A program made the translations under genes and the position numbers. Positions 2,524 through 34,981 of a stretch of 64,000 bases of DNA are shown one piece after another; within the stretch, counting starts at the first letter, position 1; every line of letters starts with the position of its first letter. Source of the DNA: a virus; the IMG/VR virus record IMGVR_UViG_3300024999_000002; one strand, 5' to 3'. The notes below the pieces were generated by a model. That model did not search any database, was not told where the DNA came from, and worked only from the letters and a program-made list of their open reading frames with translations.

Positions 2524-3699
2524 ATGATCTTTTTTGTATCAAAACAGAAAAGAGTTTTTGCTGATACAATACAAGAAAGAACAATACAAGACTGTCTAGC
2601 ATATTTTGAGAACATTAATGAAATTGCCGTAGATACGGAAACTCAAGGGTTCGACCCACATACAAAGAATGTCCTATCAATCCAGATAGGACATTTTGAA
2701 AATCAGTTTGTGGTTGACTGTACAACAGTTAATATAGCACAACTGAAACCTTTATTAGAAAATGAAAATAAAGTATTCTTATTTCACAATGCAAAGTTTG
2801 ATTTAAAATTCCTTTATAAGCATAACATATACCCTAAGAAAGTATATGATACGTTTTTAGCAGAGTGTATTCTTACAACTGGATGGGAAGAAAGAGAACT
2901 TTCATTAAAATGGGTAGCTCACAAGTATTGTGGGGTTACTCTGGACAAATCAATACGTGGTACTATACACATAGAAGGATTAACTGATAGAGTTATAGTC
3001 TATGGTGCAGATGATGTAAAGTATTTACCACTTATTAAGGAAAAACAATTAGTGCAAATAGAACACTTCAATTTACATAACCTGTTAAGGCTTGAAAATG
3101 AAGTTGTAAAAGTATTTGCAAGAATGGAGTTCAATGGAGCTCCGTTGAATAAAGTGAAATGGCAAGAAGTATCTGAGCAAGTTGAAACTAATGTCAAGGC
3201 ACTTGAAGAACAAATGGATGCCCTTATTTATACTCATGGAATAAAAGATTTACCTAAAGCAAATGTACTCACTAAATATTGTGAGATATATAAGCAAGGT
3301 AATATGTTCTTTGATGATAAACAAAGAGATTGTAATATCAATTGGAGCTCACCAGCACAGAAAACTAAATTATTACAAGACTTAGGTCTTAAAGTTACTT
3401 CAGTTGATGATAAAACATTACAGAAATTAAAAACACAACATCCAATTGTACCTTTATTAATTACATATTCAAAACAAAATAAATTAGCAACATCCTTTGG
3501 TAAAGATTTTCTTAAATTTGTTAATCCTGTAACTGGTAGAGTACATGGCAATGTCTGGCAAGTGCTTTCAACCGGCAGGATAAGTATCTCAGAACCAAAC
3601 ATTAACCAGATTCCGAGTCATGGACCTTTGGCAAAACTAATTCGAGCGTCTTTTGAAGCTCCGAAAGGTTATAAATTTGTTGGAGGTGATTATAGTGGT
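2524..3699 (+). CDS. Family A DNA polymerase, exon 1 (3'-5' exonuclease domain and N-terminal polymerase up to motif A ...GGDYSG)
   Basis: Exo motifs AVDTETQG and FHNAKFDLKF. Sequence ends at DYSG, the first half of motif A (compare T7 DASGLELR). Downstream residues RKNKLNFIW... look non-coding. Confidence 0.85.
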
Positions 3700-3721
3700 A
3701 GAAAAAATAAATTGAATTTTA

Positions 3722-3753
3722 TTTGGATTATAGAGTATTTATTCTTATATTTA
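3722..3753 (+). promoter_or_regulatory. Host-type promoter for the intron ORF
   Basis: TTTG(3722-3725)-N20-TATATTTA(3746-3753), 19 nt before ATG 3773. Confidence 0.45.
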
Positions 3754-3772
3754 CAAATAAAATTAATAAATT

Positions 3773-4561
3773 ATGTATTTTAATGAAAAGAAAATAATTG
3801 AAGACTATTTAAATGGTAAAAATACTAAGCAAATAGCAATTGAACTTAATACCTACAACACATCAGTTAGACGCGTATTGCTGCGTAATAATATTAGATT
3901 AAGAAGTCAATCAGAGGCACAAGTTAAAACTGTGAATAACTTTTTAGATTTGTCTAATGAAAATGTGCAATATTGGCTTGGATTCCTTGCTGCTGATGGT
4001 ACTGTGGGTAAAAAAGATTTTTTAGTCTCTCTAGAACTTCAAAGAAAAGATTTAAATCATTTACTTAAATATTGTAATTTTATAGGAATATCTTATAAAA
4101 CTATAAAATACCCTAAATATAACACAGTAGGATATAGGGCTAATTTTCGTAATAAAGAAGTAAATTTATATTTAAAGGCGCTAGGAATTACTGATAATAA
4201 AAGTAAAACTATTAAAATAAATTTTAATTTTAATAGACATTTTATTAGAGGAGTTTTTGATGGTGATGGATATGCTAGACTTCTTTCCGAAAAAAGAGGA
4301 GCCTATGAAATAGCTACTATGAGTTTAGATTTTAAAAATCAATTATCAACTTTTTTTAATAATAATAGTATTAAACATACTGTAACTTTACGAAAAGATG
4401 GAATATTTCTAATAGGAATATATACCCAAAATGAAGTGAAAAAATTTTATAACATAATTTATGATAATGCTACAGTATTTCTTGAAAGAAAGAAAGCTGT
4501 TATATGCCCTCTATATGAAGAAATTCAATTAGATGCAAAACTTTCAAATTCGGTGAACTAA
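3773..4561 (+). CDS. Double-motif LAGLIDADG homing endonuclease with N-terminal HTH
   Basis: YWLGFLAADGTV and FIRGVFDGDGYA motifs; paralog of the 22356-23147 ORF. Confidence 0.85.
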   Translation: MYFNEKKIIEDYLNGKNTKQIAIELNTYNTSVRRVLLRNNIRLRSQSEAQVKTVNNFLDLSNENVQYWLGFLAADGTVGKKDFLVSLELQRKDLNHLLKYCNFIGISYKTIKYPKYNTVGYRANFRNKEVNLYLKALGITDNKSKTIKINFNFNRHFIRGVFDGDGYARLLSEKRGAYEIATMSLDFKNQLSTFFNNNSIKHTVTLRKDGIFLIGIYTQNEVKKFYNIIYDNATVFLERKKAVICPLYEEIQLDAKLSNSVN

Positions 4562-4682
4562 GCATGAGAATACCGAGCCAAGACATTAGAAATAATGTAA
4601 GGTGTACAGACTAGACGGAAGTTACCTAAGTACATATAGTGTATAAGGTTAAGGTATAGTCGAAACAGAACAAAACTGTTTG

Positions 4683-5390
4683 ATGGAGTTAAGAATTATA
4701 GCAGAATTTAGTCAAGATCCTTTATGGCTTGAAGTATTCAAAAGAGGTGGAGATTTGCACTCCGAATTATGTGCAGCTACCTTTAAAATACCATTGAGTG
4801 ATGTTAAAACACCTTTCCCACCTAAGCCAAGTTTTACATACAGAGATGTACAGAAGACGGTCGACTTTGGGTTAGCCTTCGGAATGTCAGAATTTAAATT
4901 ATCTGATACAATACAAGTTCCGGTAGATAAAGCCAAACAGATCATCAAAGACTTCTTTAAAATTGTTCCAAAAGTGGAACAGTTCTTAAATAAGTTAGGT
5001 GAATTAGGTAAGGCAAGAGGTTTTATAGCCACTCCAGAACCTATGAAAAGAATTCGTTGGTTTCAACAATGGGAACATGCAGTAGAAACTAAAGATTTTA
5101 GAGTAATGGGGGAAATTGAAAGACAATCAAAAAATTTCCCAATACAATCAACGAACGCTAATATTACTAAGCTGGCCATGTGCAACTTACAATACCTCAT
5201 TGATAAAGATAATTTACCTGTACAAATTGTAATGCAGGTATATGATGAACTTCAATGTATTGTTAAAGAAGAATTTGCAGAAGAATGGAAAGTAATCTTA
5301 GAACAAGAGATGATTAAAGCAGCACAAATAATAATAAAAACAATCCCAGTAGAGGTAGATTGCAAAATTTCCTCGCATTGGCAAAAATAA
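4683..5390 (+). CDS. Family A DNA polymerase, exon 2 (second half of motif A, motifs B and C)
   Basis: MELRIIAEFSQD; RDVQKTVDFGLAFGMS (motif B); QVYDELQ (motif C). Confidence 0.85.
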   Translation: MELRIIAEFSQDPLWLEVFKRGGDLHSELCAATFKIPLSDVKTPFPPKPSFTYRDVQKTVDFGLAFGMSEFKLSDTIQVPVDKAKQIIKDFFKIVPKVEQFLNKLGELGKARGFIATPEPMKRIRWFQQWEHAVETKDFRVMGEIERQSKNFPIQSTNANITKLAMCNLQYLIDKDNLPVQIVMQVYDELQCIVKEEFAEEWKVILEQEMIKAAQIIIKTIPVEVDCKISSHWQK

Positions 5391-11179: not shown

Positions 11180-11944
11180 ATGAATAAAGAGAATGTATTA
11201 GTTAAAATTTATGAATTAAGAGATCCTAGAGACTTAAAATGTAGCCCTAGATATATTGGAATTACAGTAAAAAAATTAGAATATAGACTAAGTTTACATT
11301 TAAATAAAAAAGGACTGCAAATAAAAACATATAAAAACAATTGGATAAAGTCTTTACTAGAAGAAAATATTAAACCGACTATACACTTGATTGAAGAAAT
11401 TCAAGGTTGGGAATACGCTTGTAAAGTTGAAAAATATTGGATTAAAGAATTCAAGAAACAAAATTATAAGCTTACCAACGGTACTCTAGGCGGTGAAGGT
11501 GGAGGAGGGTGTGGTAGAATATGGACAAAAGAAAGTAAAGAAAAAGCAAGTAAAACAAGAATAAAATTACTTTTAAATGGTAAGTTAACAATACATAGAA
11601 AACCACACTCTGAAGAAGCTAAAAGAAAAATGTCTGAAAGTCACAAAGGAAAAGTCTTTTCTGAAGAGTATAGAAAAAATATATCCATTGCTAAAAAAGG
11701 AACAGTATGCCAAGAAAATAAAAAATTACGACAAAAAGAAAATAGATCTGAACCAATGATTGTAAAATATGATAATGGAATTATAAAAGAATTTTCTAGT
11801 GGTGCAGATTGTCGTAAAAGCTTAAAAATAGCTGAAATTACTTATTATAAATGCCTAAAATCTAATGGTTATTTAAAAAAGAAAAAACTTACAATCTCTT
11901 TTAAAAATCCAAGAAAAAGAACTTCATTTAAGTTAAACGAATAA
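11180..11944 (+). CDS. Free-standing GIY-YIG homing endonuclease with NUMOD3-like repeats
   Basis: IYELRDP...RYIGIT (GIY-YIG); repeated HSEEAKRKMSESHKGK and SEEYRKNISIAKKG. Confidence 0.8.
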   Translation: MNKENVLVKIYELRDPRDLKCSPRYIGITVKKLEYRLSLHLNKKGLQIKTYKNNWIKSLLEENIKPTIHLIEEIQGWEYACKVEKYWIKEFKKQNYKLTNGTLGGEGGGGCGRIWTKESKEKASKTRIKLLLNGKLTIHRKPHSEEAKRKMSESHKGKVFSEEYRKNISIAKKGTVCQENKKLRQKENRSEPMIVKYDNGIIKEFSSGADCRKSLKIAEITYYKCLKSNGYLKKKKLTISFKNPRKRTSFKLNE

Positions 11945-11951
11945 TAAAACA

Positions 11952-12452
11952 ATGAAAAAAGTATGTACAACAACATTAGCCTTACTACTCACAGTCCCCC
12001 TATTTGCCCCTAATCCCGGAGAAGATATTATGACTATTTGTGCTCCTACTCCTATTAAATATAATATGGAGTTAGAGAATAGGAAGATCAGAATATTTTC
12101 TGCAATTTGGGCAGTAGAACACCCAAAAACAAAAGCACAAGCTAGAGCAGCCTTTTTAAAAGAGGGGGCTTTAGGCCCATTTCAAATTCATAAAGAATTT
12201 GTAAATGATGTAAACGATATAGTTTTAAAACAGAAAAAGTATACACATAATGATTGTCTAGATAGCTTGAAATCTATAGAGATAATGACATTATATCATG
12301 GGTATTATGTTCCTGCTTTTGATACCTATAAAGTAGCGATGACACATAATGGTGGGCCTACTTGGTATAAAGCCACTCCAAAACAAGCAAAAAAATTACA
12401 AGAATATTGGTATAAAGTAAACAAACACCTTAAGAAAAATGGAAGAAGTTAA
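11952..12452 (+). CDS. Secreted protein, possibly lytic-transglycosylase-like
   Basis: Signal-like N-terminus MKKVCTTTLALLLTVPLFA. AVEH...GALGPFQI resembles the SLT E...GLMQI motif; the match is weak. Confidence 0.4.
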   Translation: MKKVCTTTLALLLTVPLFAPNPGEDIMTICAPTPIKYNMELENRKIRIFSAIWAVEHPKTKAQARAAFLKEGALGPFQIHKEFVNDVNDIVLKQKKYTHNDCLDSLKSIEIMTLYHGYYVPAFDTYKVAMTHNGGPTWYKATPKQAKKLQEYWYKVNKHLKKNGRS

Positions 12453-12792
12453 ATTAACAGAAATGCCTGGGGCATTTGTAGGTTCCTTAATCAGGAATAA
12501 CAAACAAATTAAAGAAGATCGCGCCACTGCTATTGCAGAAGATGTAGAGATTCTTTTTAAAAGAGAAGTTGAAGATCTAGAACTTCAAATCAAGAAAACT
12601 AGGAGAGATAGAGAATCATTATTGGATTTATCCCCAACTAATGCTACTTCATTAATTCTAGCATCTGATTTTAATTCAAAGAATTTTATTGCAAAGTATC
12701 TTGAACTAGGGCTTACTATTAGAAATCTTGGGATCAGACTTGAGATTGCTACAGAAGGTTATAATTATTTATTTAAAGCTAAAGCAGAGTAA
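12439..12792 (+). CDS. Hypothetical protein (coiled-coil)
   Basis: 117-aa ORF. Confidence 0.5.
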   Translation: MEEVKLTEMPGAFVGSLIRNNKQIKEDRATAIAEDVEILFKREVEDLELQIKKTRRDRESLLDLSPTNATSLILASDFNSKNFIAKYLELGLTIRNLGIRLEIATEGYNYLFKAKAE

Positions 12793-12794
12793 TC

Positions 12795-12908
12795 ATGGGA
12801 ATGGTAGAAAGAATTGAATCTACAGAAACTGTAGAACAAGAAATAGTAATGCCTACTAAAGAAGAAGTTGGCGAAGTTCCAGTTGAAATTTTAGAAGAAG
12901 GTAAGTAA
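12795..12908 (+). CDS. Possible 37-aa acidic micro-ORF
   Basis: MGMVERIESTETVEQEIVMPTKEEVGEVPVEILEEGK; exactly fills the gap and ends in a TAATG overlap with the next start. Confidence 0.3.
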   Translation: MGMVERIESTETVEQEIVMPTKEEVGEVPVEILEEGK

Positions 12909-13762
12909 TGGGATTTTCAAATTACTCAGTTCAAAACAGTCTTAGTAATAGGGTATCAAAACACTATTATACTAAGAGCGCGGATGAAATCTTTACACAA
13001 AATAAAGTAAAGAGAATCCATCCTTCTATGGATCCTAAGGGGATAATTGTTAGAGAGTGCCTAGATTCTGAAGCACATCCTCTTACTGTTCCGATTATAC
13101 TCAGTCTAGACCTTACAGGAAGTATGCAACAAATTCCTTTAAATCTAATTAGAAATGGATTGCCTAAGTTAATGGGTCGTCTAGTTCAGAATGGAGTTAA
13201 AGATGCATCCTTACTATTTGTAGGAGTAGGTGATCACGAATGTGATGATGCTCCACTTCAAGTTGGACAATTTGAAAGTGGTGATGAAGAGTTAGACTTA
13301 TGGCTAACTAGAACTTGGATTGAAGGTGGTGGCGGTGGTAATGGAGGAGAAAGTTATTTATTAGCTTGGTACTTTGGAGCTTTCCACACTAAGATTGATT
13401 CATTCGAGAAAAGAGGTAAGAAGGGTTTCCTATTTACTATTGGGGATGAGCCATGTCTAAGAAACTTACCTGCTCGTTCTATTGCTGAAATTATAGCAGA
13501 AGGGCAGCATAGTACCTTTACAGAGGAGCAATTACTTGCAAAAGCTCAAGAAAAATACAATGTATTTCATATACATGTATTAGAAGGACAGCAAGGACAT
13601 AGTTCATTACCTTATTGGAAGAAATTACTTGGACAGAATTGTATTGAAGTAAGTGATTACGAAACAATTCCAACAGTAGTTGCTGAAATAGTAATGAAAA
13701 ATTCGGAGGTAACTTTGGTTGCTCCTGCAACAGATTTAACCAATACACAAGAAATTCTATAA
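12908..13762 (+). CDS. von Willebrand factor A (vWA)-like domain protein
   Basis: MIDAS-like DLTGSM followed by a Rossmann-like alternation; internal GGGGGNGGES loop. Confidence 0.5.
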   Translation: MGFSNYSVQNSLSNRVSKHYYTKSADEIFTQNKVKRIHPSMDPKGIIVRECLDSEAHPLTVPIILSLDLTGSMQQIPLNLIRNGLPKLMGRLVQNGVKDASLLFVGVGDHECDDAPLQVGQFESGDEELDLWLTRTWIEGGGGGNGGESYLLAWYFGAFHTKIDSFEKRGKKGFLFTIGDEPCLRNLPARSIAEIIAEGQHSTFTEEQLLAKAQEKYNVFHIHVLEGQQGHSSLPYWKKLLGQNCIEVSDYETIPTVVAEIVMKNSEVTLVAPATDLTNTQEIL

Positions 13763-13763
13763 G

Positions 13764-14894
13764 ATGGAAGCACAGATCGTAGTGGGACTCGGTTTTGGGG
13801 ATGAAGGCAAAGGCAACTTTACTAGTTATCTTTGTAATGAACACAAAACTGAAAAACCTTTAGTTATAAGATTCTCAGGAGGCCAACAAGCAGGTCATAC
13901 TGTAATGTATAAAGGTAAAAAACATATATTTTCTAACTATGGTAGCGGCACTCTTCAAGGAGTAGCCACACATATTTCTGAACATTGTTCTTTCTATCTT
14001 AATACAATGGCTGTGGAGAGAGAGATATTAAAGAAAACTTTTAATATCAATCCCATCTTAAGTGTGCATCCTTTAGCTATGGTAACCACACCTTACGATG
14101 TAGCTTTTGGTAGACTTAGGGAACGTACTGTTAAACATGGTAGTTGTGGGTTAGGTATTGGTACTACTGCTGCTAGACATACTAATACAGGCTTTAAGTT
14201 ACATGCAATAGACATGGAACATAAAGGCATTTTCGGAGTAAAACTTGCTAATATTAAGGAGTATTACGCCGATAAAGCAGCACAAATGGGAACAATTGCT
14301 CTGGATGAGTACATGGCAGAGGTTGATCGTCTTGAACAAGATTACTTCGACCTTATAAACAAAGAACTCTTTACAATCAAGAATAATGATGAGGCCACTG
14401 ATAAGGCAGAGACTCTTATCTTCGAGGGATCACAGGGAATAATGTTGGACAAGGATCATGGGATATTTCCTAATGTTACTTATGCCAATACTACTTCTAA
14501 GAATGCAGTACAAATCTGTAAAGAATTAGAAGTTCCATTCTCAATTAACTATATCACAAGGTGTTATCAAACACGTCATGGGAATGGTTGGATGAGTAAT
14601 GAGAACCCTGTAATCCTAATGAATGATGAAGAGGAAATTAATAAAAGTAATTCTTGGCAGGGAGATTTCAGAACTGCAGAACTTGATTATGATCTTTTAA
14701 ACCTTGCAATTGGAATTGATTTCAGTTATTGTGGAGGTGTAGAAAATACTAATCTAGTAGTTACTTGTTTAGATCAAATTCCAGGGATAGAGTTTGAAGA
14801 ACATAAGATCATTTATGAAATAGATGAAATTTATGAATCTCACTCTCCCGAATCAACAAAGATCAAGGCTCTTGTAGGGTCATTAATGCGTTAA
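13764..14894 (+). CDS. Adenylosuccinate synthetase family enzyme (PurA/PurZ-like), short and divergent
   Basis: GFGDEGKG P-loop, GGQQAGHT, GLGIGTT, FEGSQG, TRHGNG. The GxxTGRRRR loop is replaced by SWQGDFRTAELD. Confidence 0.85.
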   Translation: MEAQIVVGLGFGDEGKGNFTSYLCNEHKTEKPLVIRFSGGQQAGHTVMYKGKKHIFSNYGSGTLQGVATHISEHCSFYLNTMAVEREILKKTFNINPILSVHPLAMVTTPYDVAFGRLRERTVKHGSCGLGIGTTAARHTNTGFKLHAIDMEHKGIFGVKLANIKEYYADKAAQMGTIALDEYMAEVDRLEQDYFDLINKELFTIKNNDEATDKAETLIFEGSQGIMLDKDHGIFPNVTYANTTSKNAVQICKELEVPFSINYITRCYQTRHGNGWMSNENPVILMNDEEEINKSNSWQGDFRTAELDYDLLNLAIGIDFSYCGGVENTNLVVTCLDQIPGIEFEEHKIIYEIDEIYESHSPESTKIKALVGSLMR

Positions 14895-14901
14895 CATACT
14901 T

Positions 14902-14931
14902 AATAGGTGCTGTAATGGCACCTATTATTTT
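14902..14931 (+). terminator. Rho-independent terminator
   Basis: AATAGGTGC(14902-14910)/GCACCTATT(14918-14926) followed by ATTTT. Confidence 0.65.
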
Positions 14932-16005: not shown

Positions 16006-16037
16006 CTTGTTTATGTTAGACTTATTAATTATATTTG
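16006..16037 (+). promoter_or_regulatory. Host-type promoter for the free-standing LAGLIDADG gene
   Basis: CTTG(16006-16009)-N20-TATATTTG(16030-16037), 14 nt before ATG 16052. Confidence 0.4.
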
Positions 16038-16051
16038 TAAAAATATTAATT

Positions 16052-16645
16052 ATGAGTTTAATAGGAAACATTGAAATTACCCAAGAACAGAAGGAAATTC
16101 TGTTTGGTACATTATTAGGAGACGGAAACCTAAGATATAATGATAGCGGTAAAAGTGTATTTGGCAGAATGAATCATTCTGCCTCACAAGAAGAATATAT
16201 AAAATATAAACAGAGTAATCTTGCAAATCTAACTAGTAATGTTAAGTCTTATAAGGCTAAAGCTGGATTAAAATATTATGATAGTTTATATTTTACATTT
16301 AAATCTAATATACAATTAAACTCTTTATATCATGTTTTTTATGATGTGAATGGTAAAAAACATATTCCGGACGACTTAAGTTTATTAACTCCACGAGCTA
16401 TGGCTTTTTGGTTTATGGATGATGGTACAGCTTCAAATCCTACTATAAAAATAGCAACTTGTTGTTTTTCTATGTCAGATTTACTTAGATTACAAACATT
16501 TCTATCTGAGCAATATGGTATAGATACAGTAATAACAGGAGAAAGAAAGTTGTACTTTAAAGCAAAAACTAAGAAAATTTTTAAAACGTTGGTAGACCCT
16601 TATATAATAGAGTCTATGCGTTATAAACTTAAATTTATTAAGTAA
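16052..16645 (+). CDS. Free-standing LAGLIDADG homing endonuclease
   Basis: LLGDGNL and FWFMDDGT motifs. I prefer ATG 16052 because the tracked TTG start at 16007 lies upstream of the -7 box. Confidence 0.8.
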   Translation: MSLIGNIEITQEQKEILFGTLLGDGNLRYNDSGKSVFGRMNHSASQEEYIKYKQSNLANLTSNVKSYKAKAGLKYYDSLYFTFKSNIQLNSLYHVFYDVNGKKHIPDDLSLLTPRAMAFWFMDDGTASNPTIKIATCCFSMSDLLRLQTFLSEQYGIDTVITGERKLYFKAKTKKIFKTLVDPYIIESMRYKLKFIK

Positions 16646-22355: not shown

Positions 22356-23147
22356 CTAGGATGATGATATAGTCTGAACTTTAGGATACTTTAAAATAAG
22401 TTTTTCAATTCCTTGATTAAACTTATTAATTTTTCTTGTTAACTTAAAAGGAGAGTTATTATAAATTAAATAGAATTTATATACTTCTTCTTTCTTAGCA
22501 AAACTTAATATCCACGTTTTGTTAAAAAATAATGAATAATTTTGTAAATTTAGAGAATCGGCAATACCCTTTAATAACTCTTCAGTACCTCTGATAGATA
22601 CTCGAATAGTTGTTATATTAGGATTGTTGCTTACATGAATACAGCCATCTCCATCTAAATAACCTGATATAAAACTTCCATGAAATTCATTTGGGATATT
22701 TAATAAGATATTAGTTAGAGTTTTGGATTTTCTTTGTGTAATTCCTAAATTTAATAAATCATTTACTAGTAATGGATTAGATAATGTAAATCTAACCATT
22801 TCATTATTAGGAAATGTAAGAACTTTTTCACAACCAATTTCTTGTCTAAGCAATTCTAAAACTTCTGTATCAACTCTATTTATTTGAATACCTAGAGTAA
22901 CAGAGGAAGAATTGGAACGTACAATATAACCATCTGCAGCAATAAATCCTAGTAAGTAGGCCTTTGTAGCAGAATCTATATTCTGAAAATATCGTATATT
23001 ACCTTGATTAGACCTATAATATATGGAATATTTTTGCAATATGTAGGTTACGGACGAGTATTTTATATTAAGTTCTTTAGAAATTTGAATGGGAGTTTTA
23101 CCATTCTCTGCTAGAGATTTAATTAAATTATGGTCATGAATTTGCAT
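22356..23147 (-). CDS. Double-motif LAGLIDADG homing endonuclease with N-terminal HTH, antisense to its host gene
   Basis: YLLGFIAADGYI and FISGYLDGDGCI. Same architecture and length (263 vs 262 aa) as the 3773-4561 ORF. Confidence 0.85.
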   Translation of the reverse strand: MQIHDHNLIKSLAENGKTPIQISKELNIKYSSVTYILQKYSIYYRSNQGNIRYFQNIDSATKAYLLGFIAADGYIVRSNSSSVTLGIQINRVDTEVLELLRQEIGCEKVLTFPNNEMVRFTLSNPLLVNDLLNLGITQRKSKTLTNILLNIPNEFHGSFISGYLDGDGCIHVSNNPNITTIRVSIRGTEELLKGIADSLNLQNYSLFFNKTWILSFAKKEEVYKFYLIYNNSPFKLTRKINKFNQGIEKLILKYPKVQTISSS

Positions 23148-23224: not shown

Positions 23225-24088
23225 CATTCAATGGGGGCATTCCACAGTGGAACAGACTTAAGTGAATTAGAAGATAATGCCGGAGTATATAATTACTATG
23301 TATCTCTAGTTGTTAATTTTAAAGAAACTTATGTTTGTAAAATTGCTTTCCCTGCTACAGTAATCATTAATGAAACTAAACATAATGTAAGTACAATAAG
23401 AAACACCGATGGTACAATCATTCCATTTGAAGAAAAATCAGAAAAGAATGAGGAAAGAGTAATACATTATCTAGGAGATTTAGATGTAGTAATTGAATCT
23501 ACTCCTATAGAAATTTCAGAGTGGATAGAAGATAGGTATGCCGAAGTTAAGAAAGCAAAAGAAAAACCTGTATATGTACCATACACATCTTACTACGATA
23601 CTTTTAAAGCTGATAGAAGTGTTATAGGATTTAGAAAGGAGGAAGGGGGTGCAAAACTACCTATACCTACTTACAGACAACAAGCGTTAGGAGGGGACTT
23701 TCAAAGAGAGGACAGCGTCCTTGAATTTGAAGAGTACACCGCCGCGTCCTTCACGACTGCTAGAGAAGTTAGCAGAGATCCGAGCAAAACTATCAAATTA
23801 TTTGTAAATGCCGTAGTCTTTTCAGATTCTACTGTACCTTTAGATATTATTAAAGGGGTAGTAAATTTGAATCTACTGCCTGATGCAGAATTCCAATTAT
23901 ACTTAGACTTATTAGAGGCTAATATAGAAATTCTACATGACAATATTTATGGGCTAGGTAATGTTCATCTACTAAGACACTTAAAAGAAGTGGTAGTACA
24001 TCTAAGCGCTTATAAAAATGCCAAGAGAGTAGGACACATTGATAAACTAATTGAATTCTTAGACGATTATGGAACTCCAGCAACTTAA
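23225..24088 (+). CDS. JAB/MPN metallopeptidase, exon 2 plus a long C-terminal region of unknown function
   Basis: HSMGAFHSGTDLSELED completes the JAMM motif, in frame with exon 1. Confidence 0.8.
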   Translation, partial: HSMGAFHSGTDLSELEDNAGVYNYYVSLVVNFKETYVCKIAFPATVIINETKHNVSTIRNTDGTIIPFEEKSEKNEERVIHYLGDLDVVIESTPIEISEWIEDRYAEVKKAKEKPVYVPYTSYYDTFKADRSVIGFRKEEGGAKLPIPTYRQQALGGDFQREDSVLEFEEYTAASFTTAREVSRDPSKTIKLFVNAVVFSDSTVPLDIIKGVVNLNLLPDAEFQLYLDLLEANIEILHDNIYGLGNVHLLRHLKEVVVHLSAYKNAKRVGHIDKLIEFLDDYGTPAT

Positions 24089-24740
24089 TGACAGATTTAA
24101 AGATGCTCCTTGGTTTGAACAATGCAGCAAGGAGTTTATACTTGTAGGTGGAGTAGGTGGTATAGGCAGTTCAGCAATGTACTGTTTAACTAAGACTATT
24201 CCTTGTACCTATGCAATTATTGATATGGATACTGTGGCTGAATATAATGTAGGCACACAGTTCTTCTGCAAAGACGATGTTAATAAACTAAAGGTACAAG
24301 CAGTACAAGAGATGGCTACTAGATATTCTGCAGCCAAGATCATGCCTTTTCCAAGAGCAATAACAGACACTGATTTTAGGCCTATCACAATATCAGCCTT
24401 TGACAATATGGCTGCTAGAAAGCAGTTGTATGAAGCTTGGAAAAAGCAGGTAAATAGAGAGATTTTCATAGATGGACGCCTTAGGGCAACTATGTATGAA
24501 GTCTACATTGTATTACCAGGAAGAGAAGCACAGTACGAAGCCACACTATTTGACGATAAAGATGTGGCTGATGATGAGTGCACATTTAAACAAACATCCT
24601 TCTTTGCTATGGCAATTGGGGCGAAGATTACGCAGGCTCTAACTAATTACTTGTCTAACAAGTATACTAAGGAAGACTCGTGTGCTTTACCTTTTAAGAT
24701 AACAGAGGTAGGAGAATTATTTTACTTTAACGCAGAATAG
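24069..24740 (+). CDS. ThiF/MoeB/E1-like adenylyltransferase (minimal Rossmann domain)
   Basis: ILVGGVGGIGSS, IIDMDTVAEYNVGTQFF, SAFDNMAARKQL, IDGRL...VYIVLPG. Overlaps the JAB gene end by 20 nt. Confidence 0.8.
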   Translation: MELQQLNDRFKDAPWFEQCSKEFILVGGVGGIGSSAMYCLTKTIPCTYAIIDMDTVAEYNVGTQFFCKDDVNKLKVQAVQEMATRYSAAKIMPFPRAITDTDFRPITISAFDNMAARKQLYEAWKKQVNREIFIDGRLRATMYEVYIVLPGREAQYEATLFDDKDVADDECTFKQTSFFAMAIGAKITQALTNYLSNKYTKEDSCALPFKITEVGELFYFNAE

Positions 24741-24741
24741 T

Positions 24742-25824
24742 ATGGCTTTTAGTATTACAAGAAATGTAAATGCAATGCCCGTAATTTTTGATGGAAATTC
24801 TGCACCTAGAATAGAACTTACTCCCAGTGCCCCATACAGATGGGGCTCTGTGAAGTCAGTCTTTGATGCTATGTGTCTTACTAATACCCCACAACGAGAT
24901 CATGGGCTACATATTTATCATGGATTAACTCTTGATCATAGAGGTAATCCTTTAGTAGTAGTATGTAGAATGTGTGATGGGTCATTAAAGGCTTTTATAA
25001 GTTCAGAGTATGTAGCAAGCAATAAGACCCGCTTAGATTACATTAAACATGGAATCTATAAAATGGGTGTTAAAAGAGGGTGTTGGGAAGAGAAAACTCA
25101 AGTTGAGTTAATGGCAATGTTTACTACTTCGCTGGCGATCACTATGGAAGACTTACTTCCAGAAGGACAGAAAGCAATCAGTAAAGCATTTCTAATGGCT
25201 GAAACAGAGCTTTTGAAACCTAAGTCAGTAGTTATTTTACCAGTGGCTGATCCTACAGATGTATCTAATCTAAGAATTATAAGATTAGAAAATTGTGATG
25301 GGAATAAGTTACGGGCTATAAAATGTTACAAGGACCTTACAGGAATGGGATTAAGGGAGGCTAAAGATATTATTGATAGTGCCCCGGTGAATTTATTTAC
25401 TGGAATTTCAATAGATGCCGCCAGAGAAATCCAAAGATCTTTTGAGGAAGCAGAGGTATTCGTAGCTATAATGGCTATGCCTACACCTCCAAAAGTTATG
25501 GGTATAAAACCAAAGATTACACAGACACAAGCACAATCAGGATGGGGAGAATTCTTCAAAGACCTTGACAGTGTTAATGTACCAACAGTACCTGTTGAAC
25601 CTAGTGTTGTTGAAGCTTTAACTGCAAACAATTCAATTACTTGGAGTGCTGGAGCGATGACAACAGGAGCAGGTATATCTTTAGGTGATGTGACCGCAAC
25701 AGTAGCAAGTCTAAGGACACCGCAAGAATCATCTCGTAATCAGCGCCCACAGTCTAGTAATCTAAGTGAAGAAGAACGAATTCTTCAAGATCAACTAGAT
25801 GCTGAAATTCAAAACATGATTTAA
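24742..25824 (+). CDS. Protein containing a ribosomal L7/L12 C-terminal-like domain (residues about 176-244)
   Basis: NKLRAIKCYKDLTGMGLREAKDIIDSAPVNLFTGISIDAAREIQRSFEEAEVFV vs E. coli bL12 [54 protein letters not shown]. Confidence 0.7.
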   Translation: MAFSITRNVNAMPVIFDGNSAPRIELTPSAPYRWGSVKSVFDAMCLTNTPQRDHGLHIYHGLTLDHRGNPLVVVCRMCDGSLKAFISSEYVASNKTRLDYIKHGIYKMGVKRGCWEEKTQVELMAMFTTSLAITMEDLLPEGQKAISKAFLMAETELLKPKSVVILPVADPTDVSNLRIIRLENCDGNKLRAIKCYKDLTGMGLREAKDIIDSAPVNLFTGISIDAAREIQRSFEEAEVFVAIMAMPTPPKVMGIKPKITQTQAQSGWGEFFKDLDSVNVPTVPVEPSVVEALTANNSITWSAGAMTTGAGISLGDVTATVASLRTPQESSRNQRPQSSNLSEEERILQDQLDAEIQNMI

Positions 25825-29145: not shown

Positions 29146-29748
29146 ATGATTGATAATTTTGAACAAATAAAGAAACTACTTACATTTAATTCTGAAGACG
29201 AATTTTACTTTGTGCAAATATTACAAAGGAAGAAAGATAATCCTGGAAATATAAATGGCAGTAATAATTCTAGCAGATTAATAAAGGCTTATTATATTAC
29301 TTCTTTAGAACAATTGGACAGAGACAAAGAAGAGATGATATTTTTTGCCACTCATTTTAATGCTAGAATTGGAATAAACCTTAATAAACGCTCTTTTTAT
29401 AAAACTGCTTTTAACACTTTAAAGCACATCGCAGAACAAATGCACAATAAAGAGTTTAAACAAGTTAAAAGAGCTTACAATACTTCTTGTGGGGTGCATA
29501 ATGGTATTGAAGATAAAATATGGTTATTAGACTTTGATTATATTCCTACAAACCCTGATTGGTATATTGATATAAGAGGTATACTGTATGGATTACAGCC
29601 TATAGGAGTAGATAAAATAATTGATTTTATTCCTAGTAAACATGGGGTACATGTAATAACTAAAGGATTTGAAGTTCCTAAGTTTTTAGAAATTTATCCA
29701 GATATTTCAATACATAAAAATAACCCTACAAACTTATACATACCGTGA
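29146..29748 (+). CDS. Hypothetical protein with weak AEP/PrimPol-like motifs
   Basis: WLLDFDY (DxD-like) and SKHGVHVIT (sGxGxH-like); not conclusive. Confidence 0.4.
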   Translation: MIDNFEQIKKLLTFNSEDEFYFVQILQRKKDNPGNINGSNNSSRLIKAYYITSLEQLDRDKEEMIFFATHFNARIGINLNKRSFYKTAFNTLKHIAEQMHNKEFKQVKRAYNTSCGVHNGIEDKIWLLDFDYIPTNPDWYIDIRGILYGLQPIGVDKIIDFIPSKHGVHVITKGFEVPKFLEIYPDISIHKNNPTNLYIP

Positions 29749-31059: not shown

Positions 31060-34000
31060 CTATTCTTGTAACTTCTTACCCATACTCTGAATCTTGTAGT
31101 ATTGGCTCCAATACGGTAGATTCTTACCCCACGCGTTAATTACATCTTCCTTATCTGTGTTATCATCCCCCTGCATATACTTCATAGTTTGATCTTTAGC
31201 AGTTTGAAAGTTCTTATAGATATTAAACACTGGAATTATACTCCCCCTATTTAATATCTGGTCAAAAGTTGCAGGAGAGAAGTAAAAAGTAGTATCCCCC
31301 ATTACCCTATTAAGTGTGTTTAAAGTTATCTTCATGCCAGGACTCATATCATCATCATCATCCATCGCTGCCTTGAGTAGTAGATATAAGGTAAACATTG
31401 CAGAATACATATAAATTTCCATGAGGTTCTTTCTCATGTTTTCCTTGATTAGCTCTATGTCTTTGCTACGTATTCCATCAAAAGCCTTATCCCCCTTCAT
31501 CATAGAAAGATTGAATAGTACTTTAAGTGATTGATTAAACCCTAGTCTTGAATAACTTCTATATCTTCCTTCTACAGTACGTTCAAGAACGTCACTATAT
31601 CTTTTACTCCCAAACCTACTTTCTATACCAGTAGCAGCCCAACTTAATCTAAACTGCCCGAGCATTCTACCTAATATCCACTTCTTTGCCATTTGTGGGG
31701 AATTAGGGTCAAAGTTACCGTGCAGAGTCTTATTTATATCAACTACTTTATTCTTGAATCTAATAAACTCTTTCATCTCGTCAGAGTTTCTAATGTCTCC
31801 ACCCCAATCTTTGTTATCTCCAAACTCTTCTACATTCCATGTGCCATCATTGTTAAAGGCTTCTAATAGAGTACGTTCTTTACCATTTTTATCCTTAATT
31901 TTATTACTAAGCAATAAAGAGGTCATGGTTGTAGCCTTAATGAAAAAGTCACCACTTCTTAATAAGATGTAGGGAAAGTTCTTTAACTTTTCCATGGTCT
32001 TATTTGTAGACTTTGTTTCTCCATATTGAGACTCAATAGCATCACCTATTATATCAAATCTTGCGGCCAAGTTAGAAATCTTATCCAACTTTTTGTTCTT
32101 TAAATTTAAAGCAGAACTTGAAACTAATCCAAAAGCATTTATTACATCGCGTTGAGAAAAGTCTTTATTGCTAGATGCCCAAGTCAAGTTACTTACTACC
32201 CCAAAGATCCAGTTATTAATACCGGAGAACACGTTAAGTCCTAGAGTTAAAGCTTGATTATATCTTAGAAGTTTATCTCCTATCTTAGAAAATACTAAAT
32301 TTCTACCTAATCCTTGAGCCTCTACAATCAAAGGTTGCATTTGTTCATCATACTGTTCTTCAGTTATTTCCCCATTAAAGAGTTTTTCTTCTATAATATC
32401 TCTTTCCTTTTCAAGTTCTTTATATCTCTTTCTCTCTACTTCACTATCAAATAGTTTCTTTTTCATAGTGCCTTCATCATTCTTCTTCTCATTATAAAGA
32501 ATGGCATTAATAGTGTAGGATGTAAGAGCTTTTAAATTAGGTAAACCATCCTTTGTTTCTACAAGGTTATCACCGGCTTTGTTCTTGATTACATCTCCAT
32601 TACTATTTAGTCTTAACTCTTCAGCATTGTCAAGGATACGTTGGGCTAACAAAACCTTATCTTCTACCTTACTCTTATACTTGTAAGTTAAAGCCATTTG
32701 AGAGAAGGCTTTAAGAATTGCGGGCATATTTCTACTCATATCCTCTTCAGCTAAAGGCCTCAAGAATCTTGTAGGAATTTGTTTATAAGGCTTTTTAGTG
32801 TAAGGATCTACATCCACAAATCTTTTATCAAGCCCTTCTTCGGAAGTAATCCCTTCAATGAAAGATTTATGCAACCCCTTTACTATTCCACTAACGCTTT
32901 TATCTAATACCCCATCAACCAAGTCCTTCTTAACTTGCGGTAGGAAGTTATAACCTAGTTCATGTATCAAGTAATTTGGTAAATATGATTTCTGTTCATA
33001 CATAAGTTCCCTTATGTAATTATATACTTCATTTAGTTTTGGATCATTCTCAATGTTTTGAAATTCAGGGCTATAATACCCCATATCTCTACCTTTTTCA
33101 TCAGTCTTAACAGGAACTTCCCTTACATATCCATTATAACTTTGAGTAAAGAAAGGCCTTTCCCCACTTAACTGATCCAAATAGACAATAGGACTGTGAA
33201 AGTTTATCCAAGTTCTTAGTTTATTAGAGTACTCTTCGTGAGAAATAATACCAGCTAATTCCTGAGTATGCATGTCTTCTTCTAATATTGTTCTAGAATC
33301 TAAGTATTTTTGGTACTTTTCAACCGCACTATCCCTCAATTCTTCCGCCCTTTTTTCTCCTAGTTGATCTACTAGATACTTGAAATAAGATTTAGAATCT
33401 TCATGTGCTGCAGTTTTATGCTCAGGATCTGTAAAGAATCTAAAGTCAATACTTATCATATTATCTTTTTTCCACTCCATAAAGTCCTTATAGGCTTTGT
33501 GTGTAGAACTACCAGCATTCTTCAGATTTTCTTTGTAATTTTCAAAAGTACTCTTAGCCTTTGCCAAAGCCTCATCGTATTCTGAAGAATATCTGGTAAC
33601 TAATCCCCCTGTATATTTTCCTGCAGAGTCCTGTTTGAATAACCAATCAAAGTTAGTCATCCCTTCAAACATCTCATCTATCTTCTTAAAAGTATCATCT
33701 ACTTCAGTCTGCGCTCTGAACATCTCCCCGCGTAACCATAGATCTATTTGTTGTACTAATCTATTACCTGATTGAGAGGCATCTATTGCAAGCATACGTG
33801 CAGTGCTAATATCGCTCATCTCAGTTAGTTCTGATGGCAGTAGTCTCTTATTTTCATTAGACATTTCAATAATATGGCCCCCAACTAAAGTCCACCATCT
33901 TTGAAAGATGTCTTCAGAGTCGGCCCTATTTTGTATAGCATTTAAGGCATTAATCATTTCCTCATTGAGGTTGGTCTCCCCTTTAAACATTACACTTTTT

Positions 34001-34980: not shown

Positions 34981-34981
34981 A

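What the first reader, a model, noticed from the sequence alone, without database searches (positions are those of the whole stretch)
12908..14931. Divergent adenylosuccinate-synthetase homolog (PurA or PurZ-like) next to a vWA protein
Seen: the 376-aa protein has the AdSS GTP/ATP P-loop (GFGDEGKG), GGQQAGHT, FEGSQG and TRHGNG. It is about 55 residues shorter than bacterial PurA. The arginine-rich IMP/aspartate loop (TGRRRRxGWLD) is replaced by SWQGDFRTAELD. It starts 1 nt after a vWA/MIDAS-like gene and is followed by a terminator. Established: short phage PurA homologs (PurZ) make the precursor of 2-aminoadenine (Z) that replaces A in some phage genomes, usually alongside dATP/dGTP-hydrolysing enzymes and a family A polymerase. 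Inference: this phage has a family A polymerase and two metallophosphoesterases but no obvious HD-domain DatZ or MazG-like gene in this window. The retained Asp in GDEGKG looks PurA-like. I cannot tell whether this is purine-salvage boosting or a base-modification pathway.
Basis: partly seen in the sequence, partly recalled or inferred. Interest (0 to 1): 0.7.

Follow-up and report, generated by a model that had tools for sequence, protein, structure and literature searches.

The report
PurA-like/vWA three-gene phage module
This crAss-like phage carries neither an ordinary adenylosuccinate synthetase nor the PurZ enzyme of 2-aminoadenine phages. It carries a member of an apparently undescribed third branch of that enzyme family, which almost always comes with a vWA/MIDAS protein and usually a small helical protein, and which in Flavobacteriia lies inside NAD/ADP-ribose recycling gene clusters.

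Summary
In detail: both ORFs, all motifs, the 1-nt spacing and a downstream hairpin are present. The interpretation needs revising.

The 376-aa protein has the adenylosuccinate-synthetase fold (AF2 pLDDT 93) but fails NCBI's curated cut-offs for PurA (about 115 vs about 400 bits) and PurZ (49 vs 300). It forms its own clade, 100/100 bootstrap apart from PurA and from PurZ/PurZ0.

It keeps the GTP-dependent phosphoryl-transfer core (D13, K16, H41, Q224, D333). It has replaced every residue that all aspartate-using relatives share for binding IMP 5'-phosphate and L-aspartate (N38, T129, R143, V273, T301, R303, R305).

The upstream gene has a vWA fold with a MIDAS site. It accompanies the enzyme in 163/166 loci, and reciprocally in 76/77. 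A 117-aa helical ORF (12439-12792) is a third member, present in 130/166.

The module occurs in crAss-like, Rhizobium, Vibrio and cluster C Mycobacterium phages. It also occurs in about 400 bacterial species, where Flavobacteriia place it in NrtR-headed NAD/ADP-ribose clusters.

No Z-pathway genes were found and Asp13 is retained, so a Z genome is very unlikely. The most likely function is a GTP-driven ligase with changed substrates that works together with the vWA protein. The exact reaction is unknown.

The parts
12439..12792 (+). SMALL: 117-aa helical protein, first gene of the conserved trio
   Evidence: 47-52% identical (E about 1e-34) to the 111-aa ORF directly upstream of the vWA-like gene in Flavobacterium and Cellulophaga chromosomes. 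Present in 130/166 loci that carry the PurA-like gene and upstream of vWA-like in 62/79 viral loci. Its stop lies 2-3 nt from the vWA-like start in 110 loci. No Pfam, PHROG, NCBIfam or PADLOC hit.
12795..12908 (+). 37-aa acidic mini-ORF between SMALL and the vWA-like gene (membership uncertain)
   Evidence: Called as a gene in the source contigs. Most other loci have only 2-3 nt at this position, so it may be lineage-specific or not real.
12908..13762 (+). vWA-fold protein with a MIDAS site (phrog_2971), near-obligate partner of the PurA-like enzyme
   Evidence: PHROG 2971 (unknown function) at 5e-42. AF2 pLDDT 79.7; Foldseek hits integrin I / vWA domains at E 5e-7 to 1e-4. MIDAS residues D68, T70, S72, T161 and D180 are conserved. 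31-41% identical to the gene upstream of PurA-like in Rhizobium, Mycobacterium and Vibrio phages. N-terminal MG in 118/120 homologs, Tyr6 in 118/118, C-terminal Leu in 115/120 after a disordered tail.
13764..14894 (+). Third-clade adenylosuccinate-synthetase-superfamily enzyme (PurA-like, neither PurA nor PurZ)
   Evidence: PF00709 at 1.7e-40, N-terminal 280 residues only. AF2 pLDDT 93.2; Foldseek top hits are bacterial PurA, TM 0.73. Below all NCBIfam PurA and PurZ cut-offs. Separate clade with 100/100 bootstrap. Catalytic and GTP residues kept, substrate-binding residues replaced.
14901..14927 (+). Terminator-like hairpin closing the trio
   Evidence: 11-bp stem, -14.7 kcal/mol, z = -4.63, followed by UUAUUUUAAAAUU. 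Not called by the strict consensus scan.

Best explanation
Genes 12439-14894 form a conserved three-gene module: a small helical protein, a vWA/MIDAS protein and a PurA-like enzyme. The enzyme belongs to a third, apparently uncharacterised clade of the adenylosuccinate-synthetase superfamily. SHOWN: it has the AdSS fold and keeps the machinery that lets PurA use GTP to phosphorylate the C6 oxygen of a purine (P-loop with Asp13 and Lys16, His41, Gln224, and guanine-binding Asp333 and Ser414). It has replaced, in a clade-specific and conserved way, the residues that PurA, PurZ and PurZ0 all share for holding the IMP/dGMP 5'-phosphate (N38->Q, T129->C/V, R143 lost) and L-aspartate (T301, R303 and R305 lost; R131 mostly hydrophobic). 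That removes about four or five positive charges from the pocket. Its gene is almost never found without the vWA gene directly upstream on the same strand. INFERRED: the enzyme still carries out GTP-driven activation of a 6-oxopurine-type (lactam) substrate. It couples that substrate to a nucleophile other than free aspartate, and/or acts on a substrate less anionic than IMP. It works as a complex in which the vWA MIDAS metal (with the small protein) supplies or positions a ligand, making up for the lost arginines. In Flavobacteriia the trio sits in operon-like clusters headed by the ADP-ribose-sensing regulator NrtR, next to Prs-like/NAMPT, NADAR, Macro, PARG, ARH, Tpt1 and SIR2 genes. I therefore infer that its product feeds or repairs the adenine-nucleotide/NAD(+)-ADP-ribose economy. 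In phages it would then be an auxiliary or counter-defence function that keeps such pools usable during infection. It is not a route to 2-aminoadenine DNA.
For: Fold and clade. Residue pattern; 50 positions are invariant across 57 clade members, including D13, K16, H45 (= E. coli H41), Q224, T239, H272, Q299, C335 and D337. Linkage: vWA-like present in 163/166 loci, SMALL in 130/166; same strand in 162/163 and adjacent in 145/163; reciprocal 76/77. The pair is conserved in phages of Rhizobium, Mycobacterium and Vibrio and in a crAss-like phage despite only 31-41% identity. vWA fold and MIDAS. NAD/ADPr context in bacteria. Of 80 genome loci, NrtR is in 65, Tpt1 in 60, and NADAR and ARH in 54 each. 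Pricia has the minimal operon NrtR / Prs-like / trio / NAMPT. A Vibrio phage has NADAR two genes upstream. Rhizobium phage TM30 has phosphoribosyltransferase-like and cytidyltransferase genes nearby. NrtR-type regulators sense ADP-ribose, and vWA 'chaperones' are noted in such clusters (PMC9503650).
Against: No biochemical data exist, so neither the substrate nor the nucleophile is known. Residue equivalences come from MAFFT alignments, not from superposed coordinates, and the aspartate loop can be aligned in two ways, although both lose T301, R303 and R305. The NAD/ADPr link rests mainly on related Flavobacteriia (Chryseobacterium, Flavobacterium), where conserved gene order may partly reflect shared ancestry. 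In Acidobacteriota, Moraxellaceae and most phage loci the trio has no NAD-related neighbours, and the window itself has none. A physical complex is inferred only from gene linkage. No gene fusions were found. PADLOC has no match.
Confidence: 0.55

Rival explanations
1. It is a working adenylosuccinate synthetase (IMP + Asp + GTP) that boosts AMP synthesis during infection. On this reading it is an ordinary auxiliary metabolic gene, and the vWA and small proteins only regulate or stabilise it.
For: All chemistry-performing residues and the GTP-specificity Asp are retained. The nearest structures are bacterial PurA. One basic residue (R/K) persists in the aspartate loop. The MIDAS metal could in principle bind aspartate's carboxylate.
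Against: It scores 110-120 bits against equivalog cut-offs of 395-402. N38, T129, R143, V273, T301 and R305 are conserved in PurA, PurZ and PurZ0 alike but are all replaced here. It forms a separate clade with 100/100 bootstrap. Many Flavobacteriia carry it inside ADP-ribose clusters rather than purine operons. A plain PurA would not need a near-obligate vWA partner.
Confidence: 0.2
2. It is a PurZ/PurZ0-type enzyme making the precursor of 2-aminoadenine, so the phage has Z-substituted DNA.
For: It is a short phage-encoded AdSS homolog next to replication genes, and the phage has a family A polymerase. PHROG 1211 and RefSeq label its relatives '2-aminooxy adenylosuccinate synthetase'.
Against: Asp13 is retained, whereas 100% of phage PurZ/PurZ0 have Ser and S14D abolishes selectivity. 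The PurZ model scores 48.8 against a cut-off of 300. It lies outside the PurZ/PurZ0 clade. No HD/DatZ, MazG, DUF550 or Dut-like gene appears in about 79 kb surveyed. The aspartate loop that PurZ keeps is lost. The same gene sits in hundreds of bacterial chromosomes.
Confidence: 0.02
3. It is a protein-directed ligase. The nucleophile is a protein amine, most attractively the invariant N-terminal glycine of the vWA partner after Met removal, so the enzyme attaches a purine nucleotide through C6/N6 to that protein.
For: The vWA-like N-terminus is MG in 118/120 homologs with Tyr6 in 118/118, and it is modelled as flexible. In PurA the nucleophile is an alpha-amino group. Loss of the carboxylate-binding arginines and gain of aromatic/hydrophobic residues in the loop is what a switch from free Asp to a peptide N-terminus would predict. 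The gene linkage is near-obligate.
Against: This is purely inferential. Conserved termini could equally be docking motifs. No precedent exists in this superfamily. No complex model or mass data are available.
Confidence: 0.1
4. It is a GTP-driven switch or chaperone rather than a metabolic enzyme. On this reading a SIMIBI-class GTPase has been co-opted, like MoxR-vWA or G3E metallochaperone systems, to remodel or load a target bound by the vWA/MIDAS protein.
For: vWA proteins usually act as adaptors for NTPases, and are proposed as peptide-binding chaperones in NrtR/ARG clusters (PMC9503650). In some phages the slot upstream of vWA holds a J-domain-like/kinase-like protein instead of SMALL. 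Substrate-binding residues are degraded.
Against: Residues needed only for chemistry on the purine (D13, H41, Q224, T239 and the TRxG loop) are invariant across the clade. That is unexpected for a mere GTPase switch.
Confidence: 0.1

Closest known systems
Adenylosuccinate synthetase PurA (EC 6.3.4.4; Pfam PF00709, TIGR00184)
   Same: Same fold (Foldseek E 5e-22, TM 0.73). Same P-loop GDEGKG with catalytic Asp13, plus Lys16, His41, Gln224 and Thr239. The guanine-binding Asp333 and Ser414 are also kept, so GTP-dependent phosphoryl transfer to a purine O6 is plausible.
   Different: About 55 aa shorter, and the profile match stops at residue 280. N38->Q, T129->C, R131->hydrophobic, R143 lost, V273->H, K331->C. 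The TTGRRR aspartate loop is replaced by N-x-aromatic-Q-G-x-F-R with a 3-residue insertion. Fails the equivalog cut-offs. Almost always paired with a vWA protein. Found in NAD/ADP-ribose clusters rather than purine operons.
PurZ / PurZ0 (succino-amino-deoxyadenylate synthase of Z-genome phages; NF038379; PDB 6FM1, 7ODX, 7VF6)
   Same: Short, phage-encoded members of the same superfamily with similar compaction of the C-terminal half. PurZ0 also keeps the guanine-binding Asp.
   Different: PurZ/PurZ0 have Ser in place of Asp13. They keep N38, T129, R143, V273, T301 and R305, and come with DatZ/MazZ/DUF550 or DutZ/DmtZ. This protein has none of these features and lies in a different clade (100/100 bootstrap).
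NrtR/ARG-centred ADP-ribose-processing clusters with vWA 'chaperones' (Iyer, Burroughs, Anantharaman, Aravind 2022, PMC9503650) and phage NAD+ reconstitution pathways (NARP1-3)
   Same: In Flavobacteriia the trio lies in clusters headed by a Nudix-wHTH (NrtR) regulator, with ARH, Macro, NADAR and calcineurin-like phosphoesterase genes plus Prs-like and NAMPT genes. That is the same parts list as those systems. A vWA component is noted in them.
   Different: None of those descriptions includes an adenylosuccinate-synthetase-like enzyme or the small helical protein. The window phage carries the trio without any NAMPT, Prs, Macro or NADAR gene. A role in NAD+ metabolism is an inference from neighbourhood only.
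NTPase-vWA adaptor pairs (MoxR-vWA such as NorQ/NorD, CbbQ/CbbO, Mg-chelatase ChlI/ChlD)
   Same: A MIDAS-bearing vWA protein genetically coupled to a P-loop NTPase. Conserved terminal peptides on the vWA protein suggest docking.
   Different: The NTPase here is a SIMIBI-class AdSS homolog with an intact small-molecule catalytic site, not an AAA+ MoxR ring ATPase.

Membership tests
PurA (adenylosuccinate synthetase) | AdSS fold with P-loop GDEGKG (catalytic Asp13, Lys16), His41 and Gln224 | tested here: met
   Alignments; AF2 and Foldseek.
PurA (adenylosuccinate synthetase) | GTP specificity elements: Asp333 of (T/N)KxD and Ser414 | tested here: met
   T-C-L-D-Q with Asp invariant and S-x-S-P conserved. 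Lys331 is replaced by Cys.
PurA (adenylosuccinate synthetase) | L-aspartate site: Thr301, Arg303, Arg305 (and Arg131) | tested here: not met
   The loop is N-x-(W/Y/F)-Q-(G/K)-x-(F/L)-R with a 3-residue insertion. R131 is L/M/V/K. T301 and R305 are invariant in the PurA, PurZ and PurZ0 references.
PurA (adenylosuccinate synthetase) | IMP 5'-phosphate ligands Asn38, Thr129, Arg143' and Thr239 | tested here: not met
   Q38, C/V129 and no Arg at the R143 column; only T239 is kept. This is alignment-based, not structure-superposed.
PurA (adenylosuccinate synthetase) | Score above curated equivalog cut-off (NF002223, TIGR00184, NF010355, NF003295) | tested here: not met
   119.5 vs 402; 110.5 vs 395.55; 95.6 vs 445; 67.6 vs 368.
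PurA (adenylosuccinate synthetase) | Catalyses IMP + L-Asp + GTP -> adenylosuccinate | not testable with these tools
   Needs an enzyme assay or purA complementation.
PurZ / PurZ0 | [quoted passage not shown] | tested here: not met
   GDEGKG here and G-D in all 22 clade members tabulated. PurZ/PurZ0 references have G-S.
PurZ / PurZ0 | Score above NF038379 cut-off, and placement in the PurZ/PurZ0 clade | tested here: not met
   48.8 vs 300 bits. The PurZ+PurZ0 split and the F-clade split each have 100/100 bootstrap.
PurZ / PurZ0 | Co-encoded dATP/dGTP-clearing enzymes (DatZ HD, MazZ/DUF550, or DutZ/DmtZ) | tested here: not met
   None among the precomputed Pfam hits of called genes over about 79 kb of the ~103-kb genome. 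PHROG scan of 10 further ORFs found none. About 24 kb of the genome was not seen.
PurZ / PurZ0 | 2-aminoadenine in virion DNA | not testable with these tools
   Requires LC-MS/MS of virion nucleosides.
vWA / MIDAS domain (upstream gene) | Rossmann-like vWA fold | tested here: met
   Foldseek vs PDB: integrin alpha I domains, collagen VI and VWF A domains at prob 1.00, E 5e-7 to 1e-4, TM about 0.6 on the target.
vWA / MIDAS domain (upstream gene) | MIDAS motif DxSxS ... T ... D | tested here: met
   D68-L-T70-G-S72 (DxSGS in TM30), T161, and G-D180-E are invariant or nearly so.
vWA / MIDAS domain (upstream gene) | Match to a curated vWA sequence model | tested here: not met
   No Pfam hit at E <= 1 for 15 members. 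No PDB profile hit. No NCBIfam hit.
Phage NAD+ reconstitution pathways (NARP1/2/3) | Adps+Namat, NAMPT+NMNAT, or PnuC+NadR encoded by the phage | tested here: not met
   No such Pfam hits in the window or its flanks. Prs-like and NAMPT genes flank the trio only in Flavobacteriia.
Known anti-phage defence systems (PADLOC) | Match to a defence-system protein model | tested here: not met
   No hit for any of the three proteins.

The most novel reading that the evidence does not exclude
The trio is a new enzymatic system. A PurA-derived, GTP-dependent ligase works in complex with a MIDAS/vWA protein to join a purine (or related lactam) nucleotide to a non-aspartate amine. The product would be either a new N6-substituted nucleotide or a protein-nucleotide conjugate on the partner's invariant N-terminal glycine. 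The system would function in the NAD+/ADP-ribose conflict between phages and bacteria, induced by ADP-ribose via NrtR in hosts and used as a counter-measure by phages.
Probability: 0.3. Interest if true: 0.85.

Novelty: new variant of a known kind. Interest (0 to 1): 0.7.

Why it matters
Hundreds of phage genomes, including about 200 cluster C mycobacteriophages, Rhizobium and Vibrio myoviruses and many crAss-like gut and environmental phages, carry this gene. So do about 400 bacterial species. It is annotated as 'adenylosuccinate synthetase' or, wrongly, as the Z-DNA enzyme '2-aminooxy adenylosuccinate synthetase'.

Showing that it is a separate clade with remodelled substrate sites and a near-obligate vWA partner has three consequences:
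- It corrects a widespread annotation and removes a false signal for Z-genomes in metagenome surveys.
- It defines a compact, widely conserved three-gene module that can be tested in tractable hosts (M. smegmatis phages, Flavobacterium johnsoniae, Chryseobacterium).
- It points to a possible new reaction in a superfamily that so far has only two known activities, in a genomic setting (NrtR, NAMPT, NADAR, Macro, Tpt1) central to current work on NAD+-based immunity and phage counter-defence.

Tried and rejected
- **Close phage relative by DNA:** megablast of 11 kb found none.
- **PurZ hypothesis:** rejected on Asp13, the HMM cut-off, the tree and gene content (23, 25-27).
- **Sequence-profile identification of the vWA-like and small proteins:** Pfam, PDB profile, NCBIfam and PADLOC all empty. 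Only structure prediction identified the vWA fold.
- **Known NAD+ pathways:** NARP3 is PnuC + NadR, with no PurA-like enzyme. The NARP1 preprint matched none of my context terms (NrtR, Flavobacteriia, Bacteroidetes); I did not search it for adenylosuccinate, PurA or vWA. The survey of viral NAD-ADPr systems never mentions adenylosuccinate or PurA.
- **Literature searches:** crAss + adenylosuccinate, vWA / von Willebrand + adenylosuccinate, NADAR + adenylosuccinate, anti-defense + adenylosuccinate, and PurA-like + mycobacteriophage returned nothing relevant. In Vi01-like phages the two annotations belong to non-adjacent genes.
- **Rosetta-stone fusions among the three families:** none in about 4,000 ORFs.
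- **NAD/ADPr genes in the window phage itself:** none found. The NAD link therefore comes from bacterial homolog contexts only.
- **Consensus terminator scan:** found nothing after the gene. Folding was needed.
- **Not possible here:** a model of the three-protein complex, extraction of model coordinates for a true structural residue mapping, and a check that the Flavobacteriia carrying the trio also have a canonical purA.
Full report
**1. Observation**

The quoted motifs are all present. Pfam PF00709 matches at 1.7e-40, but only over residues 5-280 (profile 1-275 of 416), so the C-terminal quarter is too divergent for the model. A strict consensus scan finds no terminator after the gene. However, 14901-14927 folds into an 11-bp hairpin (-14.7 kcal/mol, z = -4.6) followed by a U/A-rich run.

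**2. Genome**

The window is part of a phage contig of about 102.7 kb, seen in several metagenomes. It is crAss-like:
- It has CrAss_Ring Pfam families.
- It has a 3,895-aa ORF.
- GC is 33%, with two opposed gene blocks.

No record in the phage collection is close at the DNA level. The module lies in the replication block, among a split family A polymerase, helicases, a primase, a Sak4-like ATPase, UDG and two metallophosphoesterases.

**3. Which family**

- PDB sequence search ranks bacterial PurA first (3.5e-21). PhiVC8 PurZ is barely detected (0.005).
- An AF2 model built on 57 homologs is confident (pLDDT 93.2). Foldseek gives bacterial PurA at E about 5e-22 and TM 0.73, ahead of PurZ0 (5e-16) and PurZ (1.5e-15).
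- The curated NCBIfam thresholds are all missed by wide margins. PurA equivalogs score 119.5 vs 402, 110.5 vs 395.55 and 95.6 vs 445. Archaeal-type PurA scores 67.6 vs 368. PurZ scores 48.8 vs 300.
- I built a neighbour-joining tree on 351 aligned columns from 22 relatives of the window protein, 4 bacterial PurA, 2 PurZ and 3 PurZ0. It gives three groups, each with 100/100 bootstrap.
- tblastn against phage records finds 238 records with the window protein (201 Mycobacterium, 10 Rhizobium, 6 Vibrio and others). PhiVC8 PurZ finds 201 records dominated by other host genera (Arthrobacter, Microbacterium, Acinetobacter and others). No record appears in both sets of listed hits.

**4. Residues (E. 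coli PurA numbering)**

All three clades share G12, K16, G40/H41, Q224, T239 and the T/S-R-x-G loop.

The window clade keeps Asp13, whereas all PurZ/PurZ0 have Ser. It also keeps the guanine-binding Asp333 and Ser414, but K331 is Cys.

The aspartate-using enzymes (PurA, PurZ and PurZ0) all keep N38, T129, R143, V273, T301, R305 and R306. The window clade instead has:
- Q38.
- C129 (sometimes V).
- No arginine at the R143 column.
- H273.
- A loop N-x-(W/Y/F)-Q-(G/K)-x-(F/L)-R that is three residues longer and holds a single basic residue.
- Mostly hydrophobic residues at R131.

These replacements are themselves conserved. Across 57 members, 50 positions are invariant, including H272, Q299, C335 and D337. 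This is the signature of a changed specificity rather than decay. The equivalences rest on sequence alignment. An alternative register of the loop still loses T301, R303 and R305.

**5. Partners**

The upstream protein matches only PHROG 2971, of unknown function. It has no Pfam, PDB-profile or NCBIfam hit. Its AF2 model (pLDDT 79.7) is a vWA fold by Foldseek, matching integrin I, collagen VI and VWF A domains. The MIDAS residues D68/T70/S72, T161 and D180 are conserved, together with family-specific blocks (R-E..D-S, L-Q-x-G-Q-F-E, G-G-G-G-N-x-x-E-S-Y).

Its termini are unusually conserved. The N-terminus is MG in 118/120 homologs, with Tyr6 in 118/118. After a disordered variable tail, the C-terminus is Leu in 115/120, mostly as I-L or M-L. 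The enzyme's own termini vary.

The 117-aa ORF at 12439..12792 is 47-52% identical to the 111-aa ORF that precedes the vWA gene in Flavobacterium and Cellulophaga. The module therefore has three genes.

**6. Linkage**

- I analysed 166 loci holding a relative of the enzyme: 80 GTDB genomes, 80 IMG/VR contigs and 6 reference loci. The vWA gene is present in 163 and the small gene in 130.
- The vWA and enzyme genes are on the same strand in 162/163 loci and adjacent in 145/163. Most exceptions hold one inserted ORF of about 250 aa; one such cluster has GIY-YIG-like motifs by eye and was not scanned against Pfam.
- The small gene's stop lies 2-3 nt from the vWA start in 110 loci.
- Searching the other way with the vWA protein, 76 of 77 viral loci with enough downstream sequence carry the enzyme.
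- The pair is conserved in Rhizobium phage RHph_TM30, Mycobacterium phage Tonenili and Vibrio phage TDDLMA, at 31-41% identity for the vWA protein.
- Phage lineages lacking the small gene have a protein of about 294 aa with an H-P-D motif in that slot. In Tonenili the slot holds a protein with a weak DnaJ hit and a protein-kinase domain.

**7. Cellular homologs and context**

The genome collection contains 410 relatives. Most are in Chryseobacterium and Flavobacterium. Others are in Pyrinomonadaceae, Moraxellaceae and candidate-phyla MAGs.

In Flavobacteriia the trio lies in a co-directional cluster that begins with a Nudix-wHTH NrtR regulator (65/80 genome loci). The cluster also contains:
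- Tpt1 (60 loci).
- NADAR (54) and ADP-ribosylglycohydrolase (54).
- A calcineurin-like phosphoesterase (45).
- Macro domains.
- Microbial PARG.
- SIR2.
- DUF4291.
- A ribose-phosphate-diphosphokinase-like gene.
- NAMPT.

A Pricia MAG has the minimal arrangement NrtR / Prs-like / trio / NAMPT. The Vibrio phage has a NADAR gene two genes upstream. Rhizobium phage TM30 has phosphoribosyltransferase-like and cytidyltransferase genes a few kb upstream.

Iyer et al. 2022 describe NrtR/ARG-centred ADP-ribose-processing clusters with vWA 'chaperones', but mention no AdSS-like enzyme.

Outside Flavobacteriia, and in most phage loci including this window, the trio has no NAD-related neighbours.

**8. 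Z-genome test**

Every criterion available from sequence fails:
- Asp, not Ser, at position 13.
- Below the PurZ model cut-off.
- Outside the PurZ clade.
- No DatZ, MazZ, DUF550 or DutZ-type gene in about 79 kb surveyed.
- The aspartate loop that PurZ needs is missing.
- The same gene sits in hundreds of bacterial chromosomes.

The PHROG/RefSeq label '2-aminooxy adenylosuccinate synthetase' on cluster C mycobacteriophage and Rhizobium phage homologs appears to be name transfer across clades.

**9. Mechanism**

Shown: an intact GTP-dependent phosphoryl-transfer centre, remodelled and less cationic substrate pockets, and a near-obligate MIDAS-vWA partner plus a small helical protein.

Inferred: the enzyme still activates a lactam oxygen of a purine-type substrate with GTP. 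It then joins that substrate to something other than free aspartate. The vWA protein supplies or positions a ligand through its metal site or its conserved termini. The Flavobacteriia context suggests the reaction serves the adenine-nucleotide/NAD+-ADP-ribose economy under NrtR control. Phages would use it to sustain or repair such pools, or to blunt NAD/ADPr-based immunity.

Rivals, with my estimated probabilities:
- A genuine but regulated PurA (0.2).
- A protein-directed ligase acting on the partner's N-terminal Gly (0.1).
- A non-metabolic GTPase-vWA chaperone (0.1).
- PurZ (0.02).

**10. Novelty and limits**

Nine literature searches and five papers read found no description of this clade or module (58, 59, 67, 68, 88, 89). 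PMC12884076 notes several hundred viral PF00709 proteins that are neither PurZ nor in the E. coli PurA group, but uses them only as the root of its tree.

The library is incomplete, so prior description elsewhere cannot be excluded. The function is inferred entirely from sequence, predicted structure and gene neighbourhood. The tree is NJ with few references and no archaeal PurA. The complex was not modelled.

Noticed in passing
window 2524-5390 (+): The family A DNA polymerase is split. A 419-aa ORF (DNA_pol_A_exo1 + DNA_pol_A) and a 235-aa ORF (DNA_pol_A) are separated by a 262-aa LAGLIDADG-type ORF whose start overlaps the end of the first. This could be an intron- or intein-like homing-endonuclease insertion in the polymerase gene.
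   Followed up: no
window 11180-11944 (+), 16007-16645 (+), 22356-23147 (-); also L098, L106, L114, L145-L155: The replication block is dense with homing-endonuclease-type ORFs (GIY-YIG/NUMOD3, LAGLIDADG_2, LAGLIDADG_1/3). In 16 related viral loci a single ~207-276-aa ORF (clusters c85, c91) sits exactly between the vWA-like and PurA-like genes. One of these clusters looks GIY-YIG-like by eye. None was scanned against Pfam.
   Followed up: partly
window 24069-25824 (+): A ThiF/E1-like protein (223 aa, PF00899) is directly followed by a 360-aa protein with a Ribosomal_L12 Pfam hit. PHROGs list both as unknown function. This is an unusual pairing in a phage replication module.
   Followed up: no
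window 29146-29748 (+); L108, L109, L132: A 200-aa protein of unknown function (phrog_14949, no Pfam) lies between the two metallophosphoesterase genes in the window. Its homologs sit directly downstream of the PurA-like gene in three other viral contigs. It may be an accessory gene of the module.
   Followed up: partly
window 12795-12908 (+): A 37-aa, strongly acidic mini-ORF (MGMVERIESTETVEQEIVMPTKEEVGEVPVEILEEGK) fills the gap between SMALL and the vWA-like gene. Most other loci have only 2-3 nt there. It is called as a gene in the source contigs.
   Followed up: no
window 12908-13762; homologs P0121-P0240: The vWA-like protein has near-invariant short motifs at both ends: M-G-x-x-x-Y at the N-terminus and (I/M)-L-COOH after a disordered variable tail. 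The PurA-like protein's termini vary. This suggests docking peptides or a modified terminus.
   Followed up: partly
L002:3850-4923 (Mycobacterium phage Tonenili); L110-L122 (cluster c68): Where the small helical gene is absent, the slot upstream of the vWA-like gene holds another protein. In Tonenili this has a weak DnaJ hit plus a protein-kinase domain. In several metagenomic phages it is a ~294-aa protein with an H-P-D motif and no Pfam hit.
   Followed up: partly
L001, L002, L003 and PHROG 1211: RefSeq and PHROG annotate the cluster C mycobacteriophage, Rhizobium phage and Vibrio phage homologs as '2-aminooxy adenylosuccinate synthetase' (the PurZ name). Yet they carry Asp13 and belong to the vWA-linked clade. 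This looks like systematic mis-annotation that could inflate counts of Z-genome phages.
   Followed up: yes
L102-L104 (IMG/VR contigs): In some viral contigs the PurA-like gene is followed by a 435-aa TROVE + vWA (Ro60-like) protein. In others an R2K-clade ATP-grasp protein lies a few genes downstream. The Vibrio phage locus also has an 'RNA-binding protein' of about 500 aa nearby.
   Followed up: no
window 31060-46669 (-): Two very large ORFs (1,306 and 3,895 aa) with no Pfam hit open the opposite-strand block. From my own knowledge, not tested here, their size and position match the giant virion-associated proteins of crAss-like phages.
   Followed up: no
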